Assembly: GCF_003334315.1 (NCBI RefSeq)
Contig: NZ_QOWR01000073.1
DNA length: 16,845 nt
Direction: 5' to 3' (one strand)
Source: Escherichia coli
GTDB taxonomy: Bacteria > Pseudomonadota > Gammaproteobacteria > Enterobacterales > Enterobacteriaceae
Shown here: positions 3,696-9,433 of the stretch, piece by piece
Numbering within the stretch: position 1 is the first letter of the stretch
Layout of the letters: each line of letters starts with the position of its first letter
Translations under genes and position numbers: made by a program
The notes under the pieces: model-generated
What the model was told of the DNA's origin: nothing
What the model saw: only the letters and a program-made list of their open reading frames with translations
The model's database searches: none

Positions 3696-4824
3696 ATTAC
3701 CGCCGCTGAGTCTCTACATTCACATCCCGTGGTGCGTGCAGAAATGCCCGTACTGCGATTTCAACTCTCACGCGTTGAAAGGAGAAGTGCCGCACGACGA
3801 TTACGTTCAGCATCTGCTTTGCGATCTGGACAATGATGTGGCTTACGCTCAGGGCCGTGAAGTAAAGACAATCTTTATTGGCGGTGGTACGCCGAGCCTG
3901 CTTTCCGGCCCGGCGATGCAAACGCTGCTGGACGGCGTGCGTGCGCGTTTGCCGCTGGCAGCGGATGCAGAAATTACTATGGAAGCGAACCCTGGTACGG
4001 TAGAAGCCGATCGCTTTGTCGATTATCAGCGTGCTGGTGTGAACCGCATCTCTATTGGTGTGCAGAGTTTTAGCGAAGAAAAGCTGAAACGACTTGGGCG
4101 CATTCATGGCCCGCAAGAAGCGAAACGAGCGGCAAAGCTGGCGAGCGGTTTAGGGTTACGTAGCTTTAACCTTGATTTGATGCATGGACTACCGGATCAA
4201 TCACTGGAAGAGGCGCTTGGCGATCTACGCCAGGCCATTGAACTGAATCCGCCGCATCTTTCCTGGTATCAACTGACCATCGAACCCAATACGCTGTTTG
4301 GTTCGCGACCACCGGTGCTGCCGGACGACGACGCGCTGTGGGATATATTCGAACAGGGGCATCAGTTATTAACCGCAGCGGGTTATCAGCAATATGAAAC
4401 TTCCGCTTACGCCAAACCCAGTTATCAGTGCCAGCACAATCTCAACTACTGGCGCTTTGGCGACTACATCGGTATTGGCTGCGGCGCGCACGGCAAAGTG
4501 ACCTTCCCGGATGGGCGCATTCTGCGTACCACTAAAACGCGTCATCCGCGTGGTTTTATGCAAGGAAGGTATCTGGAAAGCCAGCGTGATGTCGAAGCCG
4601 CAGATAAGCCGTTTGAGTTCTTTATGAACCGCTTTCGCTTGCTGGAGGCCGCGCCACGCGCAGAGTTTAGTGCGTATACCGGGCTTTGCGAAGATGTGAT
4701 TCGCCCACAGTTAGACGAGGCGATTGCCCAGGGTTATCTCACCGAATGTGCGGATTACTGGCAGATAACGGAACATGGGAAGCTGTTTTTAAATTCGCTG
4801 CTGGAGCTTTTTCTGGCTGAGTAA
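3688..4824 (+). CDS. hemW: Radical SAM family heme chaperone HemW (coproporphyrinogen III oxidase-like)
   Basis: 378 aa ORF with a CxxxCxYC radical-SAM cluster motif (CVQKCPYC); start overlaps the rdgB 3' end by 8 nt. Confidence 0.9.
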
Positions 4825-4833
4825 ACTTGTATT

Positions 4834-4952
4834 GCCGGATGCGGCGTGAACGCCTTATCCAGCCGACATGTGGCAGCGGTTGTAGGTCTGATAAGACGCG
4901 CAAGCGTCGCATCAGACGTTGATTGCCGGATGCGGGGTCAACGCCGCATCCT
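4834..4952. repeat. REP/BIME cluster (three REP-like palindromic units)
   Basis: gccggatgcggcgtgaacgccttatccagc (4834-~4863), inverted unit taggtctgataagacgcgcaagcgtcgcatcagac (4881-~4916), third unit gccggatgcggggtcaacgccgcatcc (4925-~4951). Lies between the convergent hemW and yggM 3' ends. Confidence 0.8.
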
Positions 4953-4978
4953 GCTACAAATCGTGCACTATATCAAAC

Positions 4979-5986
4979 TTACTTAATCACCCCATTGCGC
5001 CGCAGTTGTTCGGTATCTTTTTTCCAGCGTTCATTAGCTTGGTTGATATCGTCAATTTTCATCAAAATCGCGACTTTTTTACTGTTTATTTCTGAAACTT
5101 TCATCGTTAACGGATATTGCCCTTTTTCGAGCGTTACCCAGTCATCCTGCAATTTACGGCTGAGTTTTTGTGATTGCAGAAAAGTCTGTCGCCGTTGTTC
5201 GTTGATATCGAAATCTCGTTTCTGCTGAATCGGCACTTCATAACACTCTTCACTCTGTTTATGACATGCCGCAATCGCCGGTTGATAAACCTCTTTGTCA
5301 TATTTAACCGCGAACGCCTCGCTATCGTTCTGTTTATTAAACTCATCACGCTGTTGGTGAATTTTTTTAAAGGCTTCTTCACGGGTCATTTGCTTACCGT
5401 TTGCATCTTTTCCCCAATATGCATCCGCTGCTTTCTGCGCCGCCACCATTTGCTTATCAAGCGCTTTCACTTCCTTTTCCAGCGCAGGAATCGAGTTCTT
5501 CTGGGTATTCAACGCAGATTCAAGCTGACTAAAGCGATAATTGAAATCTTCGCTATTCACGATCAGATATTTATTATTCGTTTTGATATCGTCGACCACC
5601 CGCCCACGATCGCTGGCTGCCGCCTGAAAAGAGTAAAAGTTCACCGACCAGCCAGACGCGGGCGTTCCTTTACTGGTTAACATCGCCGAGAATTTTACCG
5701 GTTTATCTTTCGTCCAGGTCTGTTCGAGCAGTTCGTAATCTGCCAACTGACCGACCCAGGTATAGAGATCGTCACTGGAAGAGACATCGCCTTCCGCTGA
5801 CCAGGTGGCCTGATTACCCTTAGCATCAAGATTTTTTAAGGTGATAGCATCAAGCTTGAGAATGCCGTGATACTGCTTTTTGAATTGATCTTTTAAGATA
5901 TTTTCAGTTGGCGGTTCGCCATCTGCCCAGACATTACCAGTCATCAACATAAGCAGCGCCGTGCCAACAATCCATTGCTTTTTCAC
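4979..5986 (-). CDS. yggM: Secreted protein of unknown function YggM (DUF1202-like), N-terminal signal peptide
   Basis: 335 aa ORF MKKQWIVGTALLMLMTGNVWADGEPP...; signal peptide with an AxA-type cleavage site (VWA/DG); K/E/Q-rich, probably coiled-coil C-terminal half. Confidence 0.85.
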   Translation of the reverse strand: MKKQWIVGTALLMLMTGNVWADGEPPTENILKDQFKKQYHGILKLDAITLKNLDAKGNQATWSAEGDVSSSDDLYTWVGQLADYELLEQTWTKDKPVKFSAMLTSKGTPASGWSVNFYSFQAAASDRGRVVDDIKTNNKYLIVNSEDFNYRFSQLESALNTQKNSIPALEKEVKALDKQMVAAQKAADAYWGKDANGKQMTREEAFKKIHQQRDEFNKQNDSEAFAVKYDKEVYQPAIAACHKQSEECYEVPIQQKRDFDINEQRRQTFLQSQKLSRKLQDDWVTLEKGQYPLTMKVSEINSKKVAILMKIDDINQANERWKKDTEQLRRNGVIK

Positions 5987-6067
5987 CCGAAAACCCTCGC
6001 GCAGAATAATTTATTCCGGTGATTATCATTAGGGTAATTAAAATTGGCAATGGACGTGAGTCTGAAG

Positions 6068-6094
6068 TGAAAAAGCCCCGGCACGATACCGGGG
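6068..6094 (-). terminator. Rho-independent terminator downstream of ansB
   Basis: Minus-strand transcript carries hairpin ccccggtatcgtgccgggg (perfect 7 bp GC-rich stem, plus coordinates 6076-6094) followed by cttttt, starting about 8 nt after the ansB stop. Confidence 0.7.
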
Positions 6095-6102
6095 CGAGGC
6101 GA

Positions 6103-7149
6103 TTAGTACTGATTGAAGATCTGCTGGATCTGCTGCGGATCTTTGGTTTGCGTCAGAGCCAGTTGCAGCAGAACGCGCGCTTTTTGCGGGTTCAGCGTGC
6201 CAGAGGCGACGAAGCCGTATTTCGCATCATCCACTTCGGCATCCTGAGTGGTAGCGCCCGTCGGTACGCGGGAAGAACGCACGACTGCAGTACCGGTTTT
6301 CGCGGCGGTCGCCAGCGTGTCGAACACAGATTTATACAGGTTGCCGTTACCCACACCAGCGCTAACGATGCCATCATAGCCCGCATCTACCAGTGCTTTA
6401 GCCGGAAGATCGGATGCGTTAGCGTAGTTATAAACAATGCCGACTTTCGGCAGTTCATTCAGCTTAGAGACATCGAATGGCGTGTCGCTGGTATGCTTAC
6501 GTGCCGGGGTACGCTGGTAGTCAATCTTACCGTTGTGAATGTAACCCAGAGGACCGTAGTTAACAGACTTGAAGGTCGCTACGTCGGTGGTGTTGGTTTT
6601 GGTGACGTCACGGCCATCAAGCACGGTGTCATTCATCACTACCAGCACGCCACGGTTGGCGGAGGCTTTATCAGCTGCGGTCACTACCGCGTTATACAGG
6701 TTGAATGGACCGTCTGCGCTCATGGACGTGGACGGGCGCATTGCGCCGACCATCACCACCGGTTTGTCGCATTTCACCGTCAGGTCGAGGAAGTAAGCGG
6801 TTTCTTCCATCGTGTCGGTACCGTGGGTAATGACGAAGCCGTCGGTTTTATCGCAGTCGGTGTTAATTTTTTTCGCCAGTGTCAGCCAGACATTATCGTT
6901 CATGTCCTGGGAGCCGATATTCACTACCTGCTCGCCTTTAACGTTCGCAATGTCCTTCAGTTGCGGCACCGCATTAACCAGATTTTCTACGCCAACTTTA
7001 CCCGCTGTGTAGTTAGATTTGGTTGCGGAGTCACCACCACCGGCAATGGTCCCGCCGGTTGCTAAAATGGTGATATTGGGTAATGCCAATGCTGCACCAC
7101 TAAAACCCATAACCAGTGCGGCAAGTGCCGTCTTTTTGAAAAACTCCAT
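6103..7149 (-). CDS. ansB: Periplasmic L-asparaginase II
   Basis: 348 aa ORF MEFFKKTALAALVMGFSGAALALPNITILATGGTIAGGG...; signal peptide followed by the asparaginase active-site motif TGGTIAG. Confidence 0.95.
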   Translation of the reverse strand: MEFFKKTALAALVMGFSGAALALPNITILATGGTIAGGGDSATKSNYTAGKVGVENLVNAVPQLKDIANVKGEQVVNIGSQDMNDNVWLTLAKKINTDCDKTDGFVITHGTDTMEETAYFLDLTVKCDKPVVMVGAMRPSTSMSADGPFNLYNAVVTAADKASANRGVLVVMNDTVLDGRDVTKTNTTDVATFKSVNYGPLGYIHNGKIDYQRTPARKHTSDTPFDVSKLNELPKVGIVYNYANASDLPAKALVDAGYDGIVSAGVGNGNLYKSVFDTLATAAKTGTAVVRSSRVPTGATTQDAEVDDAKYGFVASGTLNPQKARVLLQLALTQTKDPQQIQQIFNQY

Positions 7150-7179
7150 TTCATTCCTCCAGTTACGTGAACGCTACGC

Positions 7180-7220
7180 ATTATCCCTTAGCTTTGTATG
7201 GGAAAATTGACGTTAAACAA
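7180..7220 (-). promoter_or_regulatory. ansB promoter: FNR-like site (7207-7220) plus -10 hexamer (7180-7185)
   Basis: On the coding strand TTGTTTAACGTCAA matches the FNR consensus TTGAT-N4-ATCAA at 8/10 positions; GATAAT lies about 21-26 bp downstream, the spacing expected for a class II site centred near -41.5. ansB is known to be anaerobically induced by FNR (established knowledge); the site assignment itself is by eye. Confidence 0.55.
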
Positions 7221-7255
7221 TTTACAACATGAATATATTTTGGAGATCTACAAAG

Positions 7256-7271
7256 TTAGAGGCAGGTAACA
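7256..7271 (-). promoter_or_regulatory. Possible weak CRP/FNR-type upstream site of the ansB promoter
   Basis: Coding-strand TGTTAcctgccTCTAA, about 50 bp upstream of the FNR-like site (expected -91.5 geometry); poor match to TGTGA-N6-TCACA. Confidence 0.3.
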
Positions 7272-7285
7272 AAACGAAGAATTAA

Positions 7286-7310
7286 ACGGCATAAAAAAGT
7301 ATTATGCCGT
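7286..7310 (-). terminator. Putative terminator downstream of yggN
   Basis: Inverted repeat acggcataa/ttatgccgt (9 bp stem, 7 nt loop) about 15 nt beyond the yggN stop; on the minus strand it is followed by a moderately T-rich tract (ttaattcttcgtttt). Confidence 0.4.
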
Positions 7311-7324
7311 CTTAAAATAGAGGA

Positions 7325-8044
7325 TTATTTTAAATTCCCGACCAGGGCTTTGCGGCTATCTTCCAGAGTCACAACGCGGCTACAAACATCTTTGCCAAAC
7401 TGCTGGAAATCTTTTTCCTGCTTTTTCCACTCGGTTTGGATTGAGGATTGCAGCCCCCCCAGGCTTCCCAGCACATTCTGTAATGGGTTACCGCCGCTTT
7501 TCAGCACCGCTTTCGCGCCCATTTCATTAATGCTGTCCTGTAAAATTCCACCCATTGCCTGATTCACTAATTGCTGGCCTTCGGCGCGAACCTGATCAAT
7601 GGCTTTATAGTGAAACGTCAGGCCATCGCTGCGCGTTTCAATAATGCGGTTCATCTGCTCTTTCAGCTGCGCATCAAGTTTGGTCAGACGGCTGCGCATT
7701 TTGCTGCTTTCGCCCATCTCCTGAACGATAATTTTATCCAGAGCAATACGGGCTTTCTCGACGCGGCTTTTCGCGCCTTCATCAATCCACGGCAGCGTGC
7801 TGCGTAGTTCAGCCTGATAATCCTTCGCCTGCTCGCGCTGGGCGGCATTCAGGGAATATTGCTTACCGTTATACATCACGTTGCCGTCTGGCGTGATCAC
7901 CAGATTGCCGTTTTCGCCCTTCACCTGCACGGTTTGCGGGCTGACAATCACATCGTCACGCGGCGTGACGTTGCACTGGTAGTCGGCGTGAGCGGTCATT
8001 GCCGTCACTGAAAGTGCTGCCGCCAGCAGCATTTTGCGCATCAT
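7325..8044 (-). CDS. yggN: Secreted protein of unknown function YggN (DUF2884-like), N-terminal signal peptide
   Basis: 239 aa ORF MMRKMLLAAALSVTAMTAHADYQCN...; signal peptide; good SD (GAGGGAAG) upstream. Confidence 0.85.
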   Translation of the reverse strand: MMRKMLLAAALSVTAMTAHADYQCNVTPRDDVIVSPQTVQVKGENGNLVITPDGNVMYNGKQYSLNAAQREQAKDYQAELRSTLPWIDEGAKSRVEKARIALDKIIVQEMGESSKMRSRLTKLDAQLKEQMNRIIETRSDGLTFHYKAIDQVRAEGQQLVNQAMGGILQDSINEMGAKAVLKSGGNPLQNVLGSLGGLQSSIQTEWKKQEKDFQQFGKDVCSRVVTLEDSRKALVGNLK

Positions 8045-8116
8045 AGTCTTCCCTCAAGAAAAAATCAGGCCAGCATTTGCTGGCCCCAGATTGATAACAA
8101 AGTACGCGTTTTCCAT

Positions 8117-8195
8117 GCCGGATGCGGCGTAAACACCTTATCCCGCCTACTCGATCGTGCATCTTTCCAGGCCTGATAAGCGTAGCGCATCAGGC
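8117..8195. repeat. REP/BIME element (two REP units in opposite orientation)
   Basis: gccggatgcggcgtaaacaccttatcccgcctac (8117-8150) and gcctgataagcgtagcgcatcaggc (8171-8195); between the yggL 3' end and the yggN 5' end. Confidence 0.8.
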
Positions 8196-8227
8196 AGTTT
8201 TGCATTTGTCATCGCCCGTATGCTTTC

Positions 8228-8554
8228 TTAGTCCCACCAAACGTCGAAAAGTTCGCTGGTGCGTACCTCATCCAGTTTGCGCTCTTCCAGCCACTTACGC
8301 ACAATCGCCTGATGTTCTTCGGTGCATTTGCCGATTTCCTGCATGCAGATCAGACCTTCCCAGGCCAGATAACCGCTGCCGTCAAAGGCCAGTTTGTTCG
8401 GTTCGATAACCTCGTTAATAAAATCATCAACGGTTTTATCAATCTGTTCTTCCGATGTACCTTCCGGGAATCGCCATGCCACCGAAAATCCTAATTCCTG
8501 GAATTCGTCGATGTGCATTTTTTTACGCAGACGACGGCTACGGTTCTTTGCCAT
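8228..8554 (-). CDS. yggL: DUF469 family protein YggL (108 aa)
   Basis: ORF 8228..8584; start trimmed to [23 protein letters not shown]... (ATG 8554-8552), which overlaps the trmB stop as TAATG. Confidence 0.85.
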   Translation of the reverse strand: MAKNRSRRLRKKMHIDEFQELGFSVAWRFPEGTSEEQIDKTVDDFINEVIEPNKLAFDGSGYLAWEGLICMQEIGKCTEEHQAIVRKWLEERKLDEVRTSELFDVWWD

Positions 8555-9273
8555 TATTTCACCCTCTCGAACATTAAGTCCCATACTCCGTGACCAAGAC
8601 GATGACCACGTTGTTCAAATTTCGTCACCGGACGTGATGCCGGACGCGGTACGTAATCATTGCTCTCTGACAGGTTTTTATAACCGTCAATAGAAGACAT
8701 CACTTCAAGCATATGTTCCGCATAAGGTTCCCAGTCGGTCGCCATATGGAATACGCCCCCCAGCTGCAGTTTGCTTTTTACCAGTTCGGCAAACGGCACC
8801 TGAACGATACGGCGTTTATTATGGCGCGCTTTGTGCCACGGGTCAGGGAAAAAGAGCTGCACCATGCGCAATGAATTGTCAGGAATCATTTTATGCAGCA
8901 CTTCAACCGCATCGTGACACATCACGCGCAGGTTGCTTAAACCTTCTTCATGCGCAGAAGCCAGGCACGCACCAACGCCCGGTGAATGCACTTCAATGCC
9001 GAGGAAGTCCTGCTCAGGGCGATCTTTAGCCATTGCCACCAGCGACGCCCCCATGCCAAAACCAATCTCAAGCGTCACCGGCGCTTCACGGCCAAAAAGC
9101 GCGGGGAAATCCAGCATATCTTCGCTGAACTCAACGCCCATCACCGGCCAGTAGTTTTCCAGCGCATGTTCCTGGCCTTTGGTCAGTCGCCCCTGGCGGC
9201 GCACAAAACTACGGATACGGCGCAGTGGGCGGCCGTTTTCATCAAATTCCGGTGAAATGACGTCGTTTTTCAT
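8554..9273 (-). CDS. trmB: tRNA (guanine46-N7)-methyltransferase
   Basis: 239 aa [46 protein letters not shown]...; SAM-binding motif region EIGFGMG. Confidence 0.92.
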
Positions 9274-9433
9274 AAAGGTTTAGTCGCTTGTGAAAGTGTT
9301 CTGAAAACGGGCATTATCCAAAGTTAGTTGCCGGATGCAAGCATGATAAGGCCGTGGCTGCGGAAAGTTCCGGTTTACACCCTGCCGTCGCTGTGCTGCA
9401 ATCTTGCCCCCAACAACAGTGAATTCGGTGACC

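What the first reader, a model, noticed from the sequence alone, without database searches (positions are those of the whole stretch)
4979..8044. Two secreted proteins of unknown function (YggM, YggN) flank ansB on the same strand
yggM (335 aa) and yggN (239 aa) both encode signal-peptide-bearing, charged, probably coiled-coil-rich proteins of DUF families, and both are transcribed in the same direction as the periplasmic asparaginase gene that lies between them. Each appears to have its own terminator and promoter region, so they are probably not a single operon. Their periplasmic location, DUF status and conserved linkage to ansB make them reasonable candidates for functional characterisation.
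Basis: partly seen in the sequence, partly recalled or inferred. Interest (0 to 1): 0.35.

Follow-up and report, generated by a model that had tools for sequence, protein, structure and literature searches.

The report
ansB inserted between yggN and yggM
Three separately transcribed E. coli genes for periplasmic proteins lie side by side, but related bacteria show that the two uncharacterised genes (yggN, yggM) are old neighbours and the asparaginase gene was inserted between them, so the link to ansB is ordinary and says nothing about their function.

Summary
The window is E. coli chromosome, and yggM (4979-5986), ansB (6103-7149) and yggN (7325-8044) lie on the minus strand. All three have Sec signal peptides. 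yggM is DUF1202 and yggN is DUF2884.

The three genes are separate transcription units, but "conserved linkage to ansB" fails. In all 24 species-level loci with upstream sequence, yggM lies downstream of yggN inside a conserved trmB-yggL-yggN...hemW frame. ansB lies between them only in Escherichia, Salmonella and Citrobacter. Elsewhere the two genes are about 110 bp apart, or are separated by a DUF559 gene or another cassette.

yggN is conserved (79-87% identity) and published as a sigma-E regulon member. A sigma-E-like promoter embedded in the last codons of yggL is invariant in 34 loci.

yggM is patchy, diverges to 33-66% identity, remains under purifying selection, and shows synonymous divergence decoupled from its flanks, which indicates allele replacement by recombination.

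AlphaFold models are confident (pLDDT 89 and 91), but the fold searches returned only generic helical matches. The genes and families are already known, and their molecular functions remain unknown.

The parts
4979..5986 (-). yggM CDS (335 aa, GTG start). Signal peptide residues 1-21; conserved N-terminal helix plus six-stranded sheet domain (about 28-142); variable helical region 148-330; invariant C241 and C248.
4829..4955 (-). REP elements between the convergent yggM and hemW genes. They take the place of a canonical yggM terminator.
   Evidence: Rfam naRNA4 (REP-derived) at 60.9 bits against a gathering score of 59.5; fold z = -4.8; the 3.6-kb query, which includes this stretch, matched a median of 15 places per E. 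coli genome, consistent with a repeated element
6022..6050 (-). Sigma-70-like promoter of yggM (TTGCCA-17-GATAAT). The GATAAT element is also present in E. fergusonii and Salmonella.
6075..6095 (-). ansB intrinsic terminator: 9-bp stem with 7 GC pairs, followed by TTTTT.
6103..7149 (-). ansB CDS, periplasmic L-asparaginase 2.
7180..7220 (-). ansB promoter core: FNR-type site TTGTT-TAAC-GTCAA (7220-7207) and -10 element GATAAT (7185-7180).
   Evidence: sequence; FNR/CRP co-activation from Jennings & Beacham 1993 as cited in PMC3688515
7284..7312 (-). yggN terminator-like hairpin: 11 pairs, followed by a T-rich tail.
7325..8044 (-). yggN CDS (239 aa). Signal peptide residues 1-20; small beta-sheet 30-63; four-helix bundle 67-236. 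C24 and C221 are the only invariant residues across the family.
8067..8086 (-). Conserved 8-bp GC-rich hairpin plus T-run immediately upstream of the yggN ribosome-binding site. It is the likely terminator of trmB-yggL and would form a 5' stem-loop on any yggN transcript.
   Evidence: 100% paired in 23 distinct sequences; one compensatory pair AU11/GC9/GU3
8100..8215 (-). REP insertion found in Escherichia species other than E. fergusonii, lying between the sigma-E-like promoter and the hairpin. In E. fergusonii and other genera the yggL-yggN spacer is only 47-82 bp.
8228..8254 (-). Sigma-E-like promoter GAACTT-N16-ACTAA embedded in the last codons of yggL. The -10 element overlaps the yggL stop codon.
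   Evidence: consensus GGAACTTTT / (T/C)GGTCAAAA with a 16-nt spacer from PMC1312014

Best explanation
The stretch holds three independent monocistronic genes for Sec-exported periplasmic proteins. It is not a functional module.

(1) yggN belongs to the conserved trmB-yggL-yggN cluster. Its expression most likely comes from a sigma-E-type promoter embedded in the last nine codons of yggL. Transcripts then pass through a conserved GC hairpin that also ends trmB-yggL transcripts. YggN is a disulfide-clamped helical bundle (C24-C221) made in response to envelope stress. Its molecular activity is unknown. My best guess, with low confidence, is that it binds an envelope component or partner rather than acting as an enzyme.

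(2) ansB is a self-contained cassette with an FNR/CRP-activated promoter, the gene and a strong terminator. It was inserted between yggN and yggM in the ancestor of Escherichia, Salmonella and Citrobacter. It is one of several independent insertions at that junction.

(3) yggM is an accessory gene with its own sigma-70-type promoter. It occurs only in some Enterobacteriaceae, always in this slot. It encodes a conserved N-terminal alpha/beta domain joined to a long, fast-diverging helical region. Whole alleles have been swapped between lineages by recombination through the conserved flanks. The most likely role is a periplasmic scaffold or adaptor, in line with the published phenotypic association with EmrE, OmpW and DcrB.

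Shown here: gene identities, export signals, terminators, promoter-like motifs, synteny, divergence patterns and model folds. Taken from the literature: FNR/CRP control of ansB, sigma-E control of yggN, and the EmrE-related phenotype of yggM. Inferred: the direction of the ansB insertion, use of the embedded promoter, and the protein roles.
For: Separate units:
- Terminators follow yggN and ansB, and promoter-like sites precede ansB and yggM.

Synteny:
- yggM is downstream of yggN in 24 of 24 loci that have upstream sequence.
- ansB lies between them only in Escherichia, Salmonella and Citrobacter (8 of 25 scan loci, plus L001-L004 and L012).
- The two genes are directly adjacent (about 110-125 bp) in 12 loci.
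- A DUF559 gene or another cassette lies between them in 6 loci.
- ansB lies after yggM in L036.
- yggN occurs without yggM or ansB in K. pneumoniae, E. ludwigii and Kosakonia.
- trmB-yggL-yggN is kept down to homologs about 31% identical.

Sigma-E promoter:
- GAACTT-N16-ACTAA is invariant in 34 loci, including the synonymous positions of GAA, CTT, GAC and the TAA stop. Adjacent codons vary: TTC/TTT, GAC/GAT, GTT/GTC/ATT/ATC.
- It fits the published consensus and the preferred 16-nt spacer.
- yggN is reported as sigma-E bound or induced.

yggM evolution:
- Protein identity is 33-66% where neighbours are 88-95%.
- dN/dS is 0.08-0.24, so it is a functional gene.
- dS is decoupled from the flanks. 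Kluyvera ascorbata vs K. sichuanensis: flanks 0.15-0.33, yggM 1.77. K. quasipneumoniae vs K. oxytoca: flanks 0.5-0.97, yggM 0.10.
- E. coli vs E. fergusonii DNA identity falls to 36-64% just after the signal-peptide region.
- yggM is core and of one allele type within E. coli: 5426 of 5426 genomes, all at least 95% identical.

Structures:
- pLDDT 88.7 and 90.8.
- Cysteine pairs are invariant in both families.
Against: - No transcript data were available, so promoter use, read-through of the hairpin and absence of co-transcription are all inferred from sequence.
- The embedded sigma-E motif lies in coding sequence, so part of its conservation is due to the YggL protein.
- The Salmonella ChIP-seq paper states that its yggN peak held no recognisable consensus.
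- Rhodius 2006 could not validate the promoters proposed by Dartigalongue et al., and its tables are not held, so I could not confirm the mapped yggN promoter.
- The direction 'ansB was inserted' rests on parsimony over sampled genera, not on a rooted tree.
- The constant position of yggM next to yggN, and a weak residual correlation of their distances (partial r = 0.26, permutation p about 0.001), leave room for a functional link between the two.
- The proposed roles rest on fold shape and on one paper of which only the title could be read.
Confidence: 0.62

Rival explanations
1. YggN and YggM are functional partners: an ancestral two-gene periplasmic envelope module that ansB merely interrupts. 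They act together, for example as a complex.
For: - yggM is downstream of yggN on the same strand in 24 of 24 loci, and about 110 bp apart in 12 of them.
- Both are exported, helix-rich proteins with a conserved cysteine pair.
- In genera without ansB, the hairpin after yggN has only a weak T-run, so read-through into yggM is possible.
- The partial correlation of YggM and YggN distances given the flanks is 0.26 (p about 0.001), against -0.02 for YggM and YggL.
Against: - yggN occurs without yggM in many genera.
- yggM alleles are exchanged without yggN, and yggN dS follows the flanks.
- The junction is an insertion hotspot, which a co-transcribed pair would resist.
- yggM has its own conserved upstream elements.
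- The two families are not homologous (hhalign probability 13%).
- The residual correlation can be explained by recombination tracts spilling into the neighbouring gene.
Confidence: 0.22
2. One reading: yggN, ansB and yggM form a conserved periplasmic neighbourhood that is functionally tied to asparagine catabolism under anaerobiosis.
For: - Same strand and same cell compartment.
- The order is kept in Escherichia, Salmonella and Citrobacter.
- In one distant locus (L009) a glutaminase gene lies between yggL and yggN. That is another amidohydrolase in the same neighbourhood, which is curious.
Against: - ansB is absent from the locus in most genera that carry yggN or yggM, and sits on the other side of yggM in L036.
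- Strong terminators flank ansB.
- The regulators differ: FNR/CRP against sigma-E.
- The E. coli FNR ChIP/transcriptome paper does not mention yggM or yggN in its main text.
Confidence: 0.04
3. YggM is a target, decoy or immunity-like factor under frequency-dependent selection, for example against a colicin, phage or type VI effector acting in the periplasm. That would explain why divergent alleles persist and move between species.
For: - There are deep allele classes. E. coli-type and E. fergusonii/C. freundii-type proteins are 38-40% identical, although the genomes are closely related.
- dS is decoupled from the flanks in both directions.
- The recombination breakpoint falls just after the signal peptide.
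- The variable half is the long helical region.
Against: - Average dN/dS is 0.08-0.24, with no sign of positive selection in either half.
- E. coli carries a single allele type, at least 95% identical across 5426 genomes.
- There are no hits in PADLOC or PHROGs, and no association with plasmids or phages.
- No toxin or effector gene lies next to it.
Confidence: 0.1

Closest known systems
Pfam DUF1202 (PF06717), the YggM family
   Same: Full-length match at E=5e-197. All 20 aligned relatives match. E. coli YggM is a founding member.
   Different: Nothing differs in membership. New here: the family is confined to some Enterobacteriaceae, plus distant Thorsellia members seen in AFDB. It always sits between yggN and hemW. 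It evolves by allele replacement.
Pfam DUF2884 (PF11101) / NCBIfam PRK10626, the YggN family
   Same: Pfam E=1e-20 and NCBIfam 443 bits against a cutoff of 279. Of 56 aligned relatives, 54 match at E<=0.001.
   Different: Nothing differs in membership. A DUF2884 lipoprotein described next to Toastrack/ABC operons in other phyla (bioRxiv 10.1101/2020.09.24.301986) lies in a different context and carries a lipid anchor. YggN has no lipobox.
Sigma-E regulon genes of unknown function in E. coli and Salmonella
   Same: yggN is bound by sigma-E in Salmonella ChIP-seq and rises with the regulon. A motif matching the published consensus lies upstream.
   Different: The motif lies inside the upstream gene and is separated from yggN by a terminator-like hairpin. 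In most Escherichia species, though not E. fergusonii, a REP insertion also intervenes. The mapped start site could not be checked here.
Periplasmic adaptor (membrane fusion) proteins and other long-helix periplasmic scaffolds such as AcrA, EmrA and EnvC
Type II L-asparaginase (AnsB)
   Same: ansB here is the textbook enzyme: NF008304 at 707 bits and TIGR00520 at 564 bits.
   Different: None. It is relevant only as the inserted neighbour.

Membership tests
DUF1202 (PF06717) | Significant full-length match to the family HMM | tested here: met
   E=5.2e-197, residues 14-320 on model positions 1-307 of 307
DUF2884 (PF11101) / PRK10626 | Match above the curated cutoff | tested here: met
   NF007913 at 442.9 bits against a cutoff of 279, covering 1-239 of 239; Pfam E=1.1e-20
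Type II L-asparaginase | Equivalog HMM above cutoff, plus a signal peptide | tested here: met
   NF008304 at 706.7 bits against a cutoff of 506; ALA|LP cleavage motif
Sec-exported soluble periplasmic protein (YggM, YggN) | N-terminal basic, hydrophobic and AXA-type cleavage regions; no lipobox; no further transmembrane segment | tested here: met
   Rule-based scan. The signal-peptide stretch has low pLDDT ahead of a folded body. Cysteine pairs are invariant, consistent with disulfides formed in the periplasm. YggN was detected by proteomics alongside the sigma-E pathway. No dedicated predictor such as SignalP was available.
Single operon yggN-ansB-yggM | No terminator and no internal promoter between the genes | tested here: not met
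   Terminator hairpins at 7312-7284 and 6095-6075, and promoter-like sites before ansB and yggM. Sequence evidence only.
Conserved gene neighbourhood with ansB | ansB adjacent to yggN or yggM across the taxa that carry them | tested here: not met
   ansB is at the locus only in Escherichia, Salmonella, Citrobacter and, in a different position, Pseudocitrobacter faecalis
Sigma-E regulon (yggN) | Sigma-E-type promoter (GGAACTT, 16-nt spacer, TCAAA-like -10) upstream, and rpoE-dependent transcription | tested here: inconclusive
   The motif GAACTT-N16-ACTAA is present and invariant in 34 loci, but a strict TCNNA -10 pattern is not matched. Dependence on rpoE comes from the literature only. The Salmonella paper reports no recognisable consensus in its peak.
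Periplasmic adaptor / membrane fusion proteins (YggM) | HlyD-type lipoyl, beta-barrel and alpha-hairpin domains | tested here: not met
   No such Pfam hits. The model has a different N-terminal domain.
Exchangeable apolipoprotein-like helical bundles (YggN) | Homology to ApoLp-III or ApoA-I | tested here: not met
Anti-phage defence or phage proteins | Match to PADLOC or PHROGs models, or presence on mobile elements | tested here: not met
   No families matched. Plasmid and phage hits are chromosome-sized records or fragments.

The most novel reading that the evidence does not exclude
yggN-yggM is an ancestral envelope module of Enterobacteriaceae. The conserved sigma-E-induced YggN works with YggM, a periplasm-spanning scaffold. 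Divergent YggM alleles are kept and exchanged between species because the helical half is exposed to an antagonist or to a variable partner. The conserved N-terminal domain of YggM would dock on a conserved envelope component, possibly YggN itself or OmpW/DcrB.
Probability: 0.12. Interest if true: 0.55.

Novelty: already known. Interest (0 to 1): 0.27.

Why it matters
It matters only modestly.

Both genes are long-annotated E. coli "y-genes" in named DUF families, and the regulators of ansB and yggN are published.

The check removes a misleading lead: anaerobic asparagine metabolism is not the context in which to look for their function.

It offers better leads instead:
- yggN should be studied with trmB-yggL and the sigma-E envelope stress response.
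- yggM should be studied as a lineage-restricted, recombining periplasmic protein whose constant neighbour is yggN.

The embedded promoter and shared hairpin are a small, testable example of a stress promoter hidden in the last codons of a housekeeping gene.

Tried and rejected
- Sequence searches of both proteins and both family profiles against PDB gave only weak compositional hits to coiled coils, apolipoproteins and de novo bundles.
- Foldseek against AFDB50 for YggM found family members and distant "lipoprotein" or "LCCL domain-containing" proteins at 12-18% identity. None has a known function.
- Pfam scans of every aligned member found no second family.
- PADLOC and PHROGs gave nothing. 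tblastn against plasmids and phages gave nothing real.
- The idea that YggM and YggN are distant paralogs was rejected (hhalign probability 13%).
- I first read the 38%-identical Citrobacter group as a paralog. Its context shows it is the positional ortholog.
- I first read E. fergusonii YggN (92%) as anomalous. hemW DNA is 93.9% identical and ansB windows run 83-98%, while trmB-yggL stands out at 98.7%. So only yggM is clearly aberrant.
- The mapped yggN promoter could not be found. Rhodius 2006 has no yggN in its main text and no supplements are held. Mutalik 2009 and Pushpker 2022 are not held. A full-text search for the promoter sequence found nothing.
- The other literature mentions were uninformative: a synonymous yggN mutation in silver-adapted lines, and reference-list citations for yggM.
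Full report
1. What is there

The window is E. coli chromosome. Positions 4700-8300 are 100% identical to many strains, and 5410 of 5426 complete genomes hold at least 80% of that stretch.

The RefSeq annotation of a matching strain gives this order:
- yggS, yggT, yggU, rdgB and hemW on the plus strand.
- yggM, ansB, yggN, yggL and trmB on the minus strand.
- mutY onward on the plus strand again.

The ORFs match the finding exactly: yggM 5986..4979 (335 aa, GTG start), ansB 7149..6103 (348 aa) and yggN 8044..7325 (239 aa).

Family assignments:
- YggM is a full-length DUF1202 protein (E=5e-197).
- YggN is DUF2884 (E=1e-20) and NCBIfam PRK10626 (443 bits, cutoff 279).
- AnsB is L-asparaginase 2 (707 bits, cutoff 506).

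Both unknowns have a plain Sec signal peptide (VWA|DG after residue 21, AHA|DY after residue 20) and no lipobox.

2. Transcription signals

Hairpin plus T-run terminators follow yggN (7312-7284) and ansB (6095-6075).

ansB is preceded by an FNR-type site, TTGTT-TAAC-GTCAA at 7220-7207. A GATAAT -10 element lies at 7185-7180 (read), so the site centre is about 41 bp upstream of the expected start. This fits the published co-activation of ansB by FNR and CRP (Jennings & Beacham 1993, cited in PMC3688515; PMC3998974).

yggM has a TTGCCA-17-GATAAT promoter-like site at 6050-6022. The GATAAT element is also present in E. fergusonii and Salmonella.

yggM has no canonical terminator. It is followed by REP elements that match Rfam naRNA4 (4885-4955, 60.9 bits against a gathering score of 59.5) and fold strongly (z = -4.8).

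yggN is the exception to "own promoter region". A GC-rich hairpin with a T-run (8086-8067) ends about 22 nt before its ATG, so no promoter can lie between that hairpin and the gene.

3. The yggN promoter and the hairpin

Comparison of the yggL-yggN junction across genera shows two conserved elements.

The first is GAACTT-N16-ACTAA, at 8254-8228 in the window. It lies in the last codons of yggL, and its -10 element overlaps the stop codon.
- It is identical in all 34 Enterobacteriaceae loci collected.
- The synonymous positions inside it never vary: GAA, CTT, GAC and the TAA stop.
- The codons between them do vary: TTC/TTT, GAC/GAT, GTT/GTC/ATT/ATC.
- It fits the published sigma-E consensus: -35 GGAACTTTT, -10 (T/C)GGTCAAAA, with a 16-nt spacer strongly preferred (PMC1312014).

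The second is the hairpin. It pairs in 100% of cells over 23 distinct sequences and has one compensatory pair (AU 11, GC 9, GU 3).

In genera other than Escherichia, and in E. fergusonii, the spacer between yggL and yggN is only 47-82 bp. In E. coli and the other Escherichia species sampled, a REP insertion of about 115 bp separates the motif from the hairpin.

Published work places yggN in the sigma-E regulon:
- ChIP-seq in Salmonella (PMC4577112).
- Induction together with rpoE, rseB and rseC (PMC6850105).
- Proteomic grouping with the sigma-E pathway (PMC5023192).

Caveats:
- The ChIP-seq paper says its yggN peak held no recognisable consensus.
- A strict TCNNA -10 pattern is not matched.
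- I could not see the mapped start site.

Use of this promoter is therefore an inference, supported mainly by the conservation of the synonymous sites.

4. The linkage claim

The 38%-identical YggM relatives in Citrobacter freundii lie between ansB and hemW. They are positional orthologs, not paralogs. Salmonella has the same order as E. coli.

In Klebsiella pneumoniae, Enterobacter ludwigii and Kosakonia, trmB-yggL-yggN and the convergent hemW are conserved. The space between them holds, respectively, a TRAP transporter, a DUF559 gene and a Wzz-domain gene. Neither ansB nor yggM is present.

A profile search widened DUF1202 to more genera. In K. quasipneumoniae and Kluyvera ascorbata, yggM follows yggN directly with no ansB.

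I then scanned one genome per species with the YggM profile. This gave 25 loci, all from Enterobacteriaceae, which I classified by tblastn. In all 24 loci with upstream sequence, yggM is downstream of yggN on the same strand. The arrangements are:
- ansB lies between them only in Escherichia, Salmonella and Citrobacter.
- The two genes are about 110-125 bp apart in Trabulsiella, K. oxytoca, K. spallanzanii, two Enterobacter species, Kluyvera and one gut isolate.
- A DUF559 gene on the opposite strand separates them in Phytobacter, Pseudocitrobacter faecalis and two MAGs.
- A 3.3-kb two-gene cassette separates them in Superficieibacter.
- In P. faecalis, ansB lies after yggM.

Further out, trmB-yggL-yggN persists in homologs about 31% identical, with no yggM or ansB. 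It is lost at about 23% identity.

The conserved linkages are therefore trmB-yggL-yggN and, where yggM exists, yggN-yggM. ansB is most simply read as one of several insertions at a hotspot junction.

5. How the two unknowns evolve

YggN is conserved: 79-87% identity across genera, and 164 representatives at the 50% clustering level among 1.84 billion proteins.

YggM is narrow in distribution: 44 clusters with a single query and 83 with a profile, out of 5.8 billion. It is 33-66% identical where TrmB, YggL, AnsB and HemW are 88-95%.

YggM is still a working gene. Its dN/dS is 0.08-0.24, against 0.01-0.12 for its neighbours, in both the N- and C-terminal halves.

The divergence is not just fast drift, because synonymous divergence is decoupled from the flanks in both directions:
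- Kluyvera ascorbata vs K. sichuanensis: flanks 0.15-0.33, yggM 1.77.
- K. quasipneumoniae vs K. oxytoca: flanks 0.5-0.97, yggM 0.10.

Between E. coli and E. fergusonii, DNA identity falls to 36-64% just after the signal-peptide region of yggM. The ansB-yggM spacer is 88% identical, and ansB windows are 83-98%. This points to replacement of whole alleles by recombination through the conserved flanks. yggN follows the flanks rather than yggM.

Within E. coli the gene is core and of one type. It is present in 5426 of 5426 genomes at 95% identity or more, with one IS1 insertion and one deletion among the listed rows.

A partial correlation of YggM and YggN distances, given the flanks, is weak but not zero (0.26, permutation p about 0.001; the YggM-YggL control is -0.02). 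This may reflect recombination tracts reaching the neighbouring gene, or some co-adaptation. I leave it open.

6. Structures and function

YggM (AlphaFold2, pLDDT 88.7, pTM 0.64) has these elements:
- A helix packed on a six-stranded antiparallel sheet (residues 28-122, plus a short strand at 140-142).
- Helices 148-189 and 202-244.
- An 80-residue helix, 251-330.
- Most invariant residues are in the N-terminal domain. C241 and C248 are also invariant.

YggN (pLDDT 90.8, pTM 0.83) has these elements:
- A small sheet (30-63) packed on a four-helix bundle.
- C24 and C221 are the only invariant columns in a 56-sequence alignment. This suggests a disulfide clamp between the two ends of the protein.

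The only functional report for YggM is the title of Pushpker, Bay & Turner 2022 (Microbiology 168:001287). It links YggM phenotypically with EmrE, OmpW and DcrB in betaine-dependent osmotic protection. It is seen only in reference lists, and the paper is not held.

On this basis I propose the following, with low confidence:
- YggM is a periplasmic scaffold or adaptor. Its conserved domain docks on a conserved envelope component.
- YggN is a non-enzymatic binding protein induced by envelope stress.

7. Verdict

The separate-unit reading is supported by sequence. The proposed tie to ansB is not supported.

The genes, their families and the regulators of ansB and yggN are already known. What this check adds is comparative:
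- ansB interrupts an older yggN-yggM adjacency.
- The junction is an insertion hotspot.
- yggM evolves by allele replacement.
- yggN appears to be driven from a promoter hidden in the end of yggL.

Interest is low to moderate.

Noticed in passing
window 8100-8215 (minus strand): A REP insertion (partial Rfam naRNA4 match at 8106-8147) sits between the sigma-E-like promoter at the end of yggL and the conserved hairpin before yggN. It would lengthen the 5' leader of any sigma-E transcript by about 115 nt. It is absent in E. fergusonii and in other genera.
   Followed up: partly
window 4829-4955: REP elements between the convergent yggM and hemW genes reach the Rfam gathering score for naRNA4 (60.9 against 59.5 bits) and fold with z = -4.8. 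This is probably just a REP pair rather than a dedicated sRNA gene.
   Followed up: partly
L009 3992-4963: In a distant relative (YggN 42% identical; assembly GCA_015163665.1) a glutaminase gene (PF04960) lies between yggL and yggN. This is a second amidohydrolase inserted in the same neighbourhood as asparaginase in E. coli. It may be coincidence.
   Followed up: no
L026, L028, L030, L036, L039 (between yggN and yggM); L006 6868-7218: A small DUF559-type gene on the opposite strand has been inserted at the yggN-yggM junction in several genera. In Enterobacter ludwigii it lies between yggN and hemW. This marks the junction as an insertion hotspot.
   Followed up: partly
L036 8187-9230 (Pseudocitrobacter faecalis): Here ansB lies downstream of yggM (order yggN, DUF559, yggM, ansB, hemW). 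So ansB has landed in, or moved to, a different position in the same slot.
   Followed up: no
L012, L018, L005, L013, L027-L029, L034, L035: A dctPQM TRAP transporter operon is present or absent between yggM (or yggN) and hemW. It varies even within Escherichia: present in E. fergusonii and Escherichia sp. MOD1-EC7003, absent in E. coli.
   Followed up: no
L012 vs window 8214-9400: trmB-yggL is 98.7% identical at DNA level between E. coli and E. fergusonii, while hemW is 93.9% and ansB windows are 83-98%. The trmB-yggL segment may itself have been exchanged recently.
   Followed up: no
AFDB50 hits: Proteins labelled Salmonella enterica at 19-39% identity to YggM (for example A0AAJ8WY37, 336 aa, 'Periplasmic protein') and two Thorsellia anophelis proteins (20% and 14%) suggest either paralogs at other loci or further allele classes. 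Their genomic positions were not determined.
   Followed up: no
H16 (NZ_CP074005.1) and H27 (NZ_CP092500.1): One E. coli strain has IS1 inserted in yggM. Another retains only the first 82 bases. So the gene is dispensable at least in some strains.
   Followed up: no
window 6019-7065 (plus strand): A 348-aa ORF runs antisense to almost the whole of ansB. It is most likely a by-product of ansB codon usage and not a gene. It has no annotation in RefSeq.
   Followed up: no
Salmonella yggM upstream region (literature): A 2026 preprint lists yggM among ten Salmonella genes with an unmethylated Dcm site (CCWGG) in the upstream region. This could mean a protein is bound there (bioRxiv 10.64898/2026.01.27.702048).
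   Followed up: no
L013, L014, L021, L027 and others: yggN-yggM spacer: In genera without ansB the ~110-nt spacer is conserved. It holds a hairpin right after yggN with a weak T-run, then ATCAGATTTCATTTATCC, a TATGAT element and an AAGGAA ribosome-binding site. This differs from the E. coli-type yggM upstream region.
   Followed up: partly
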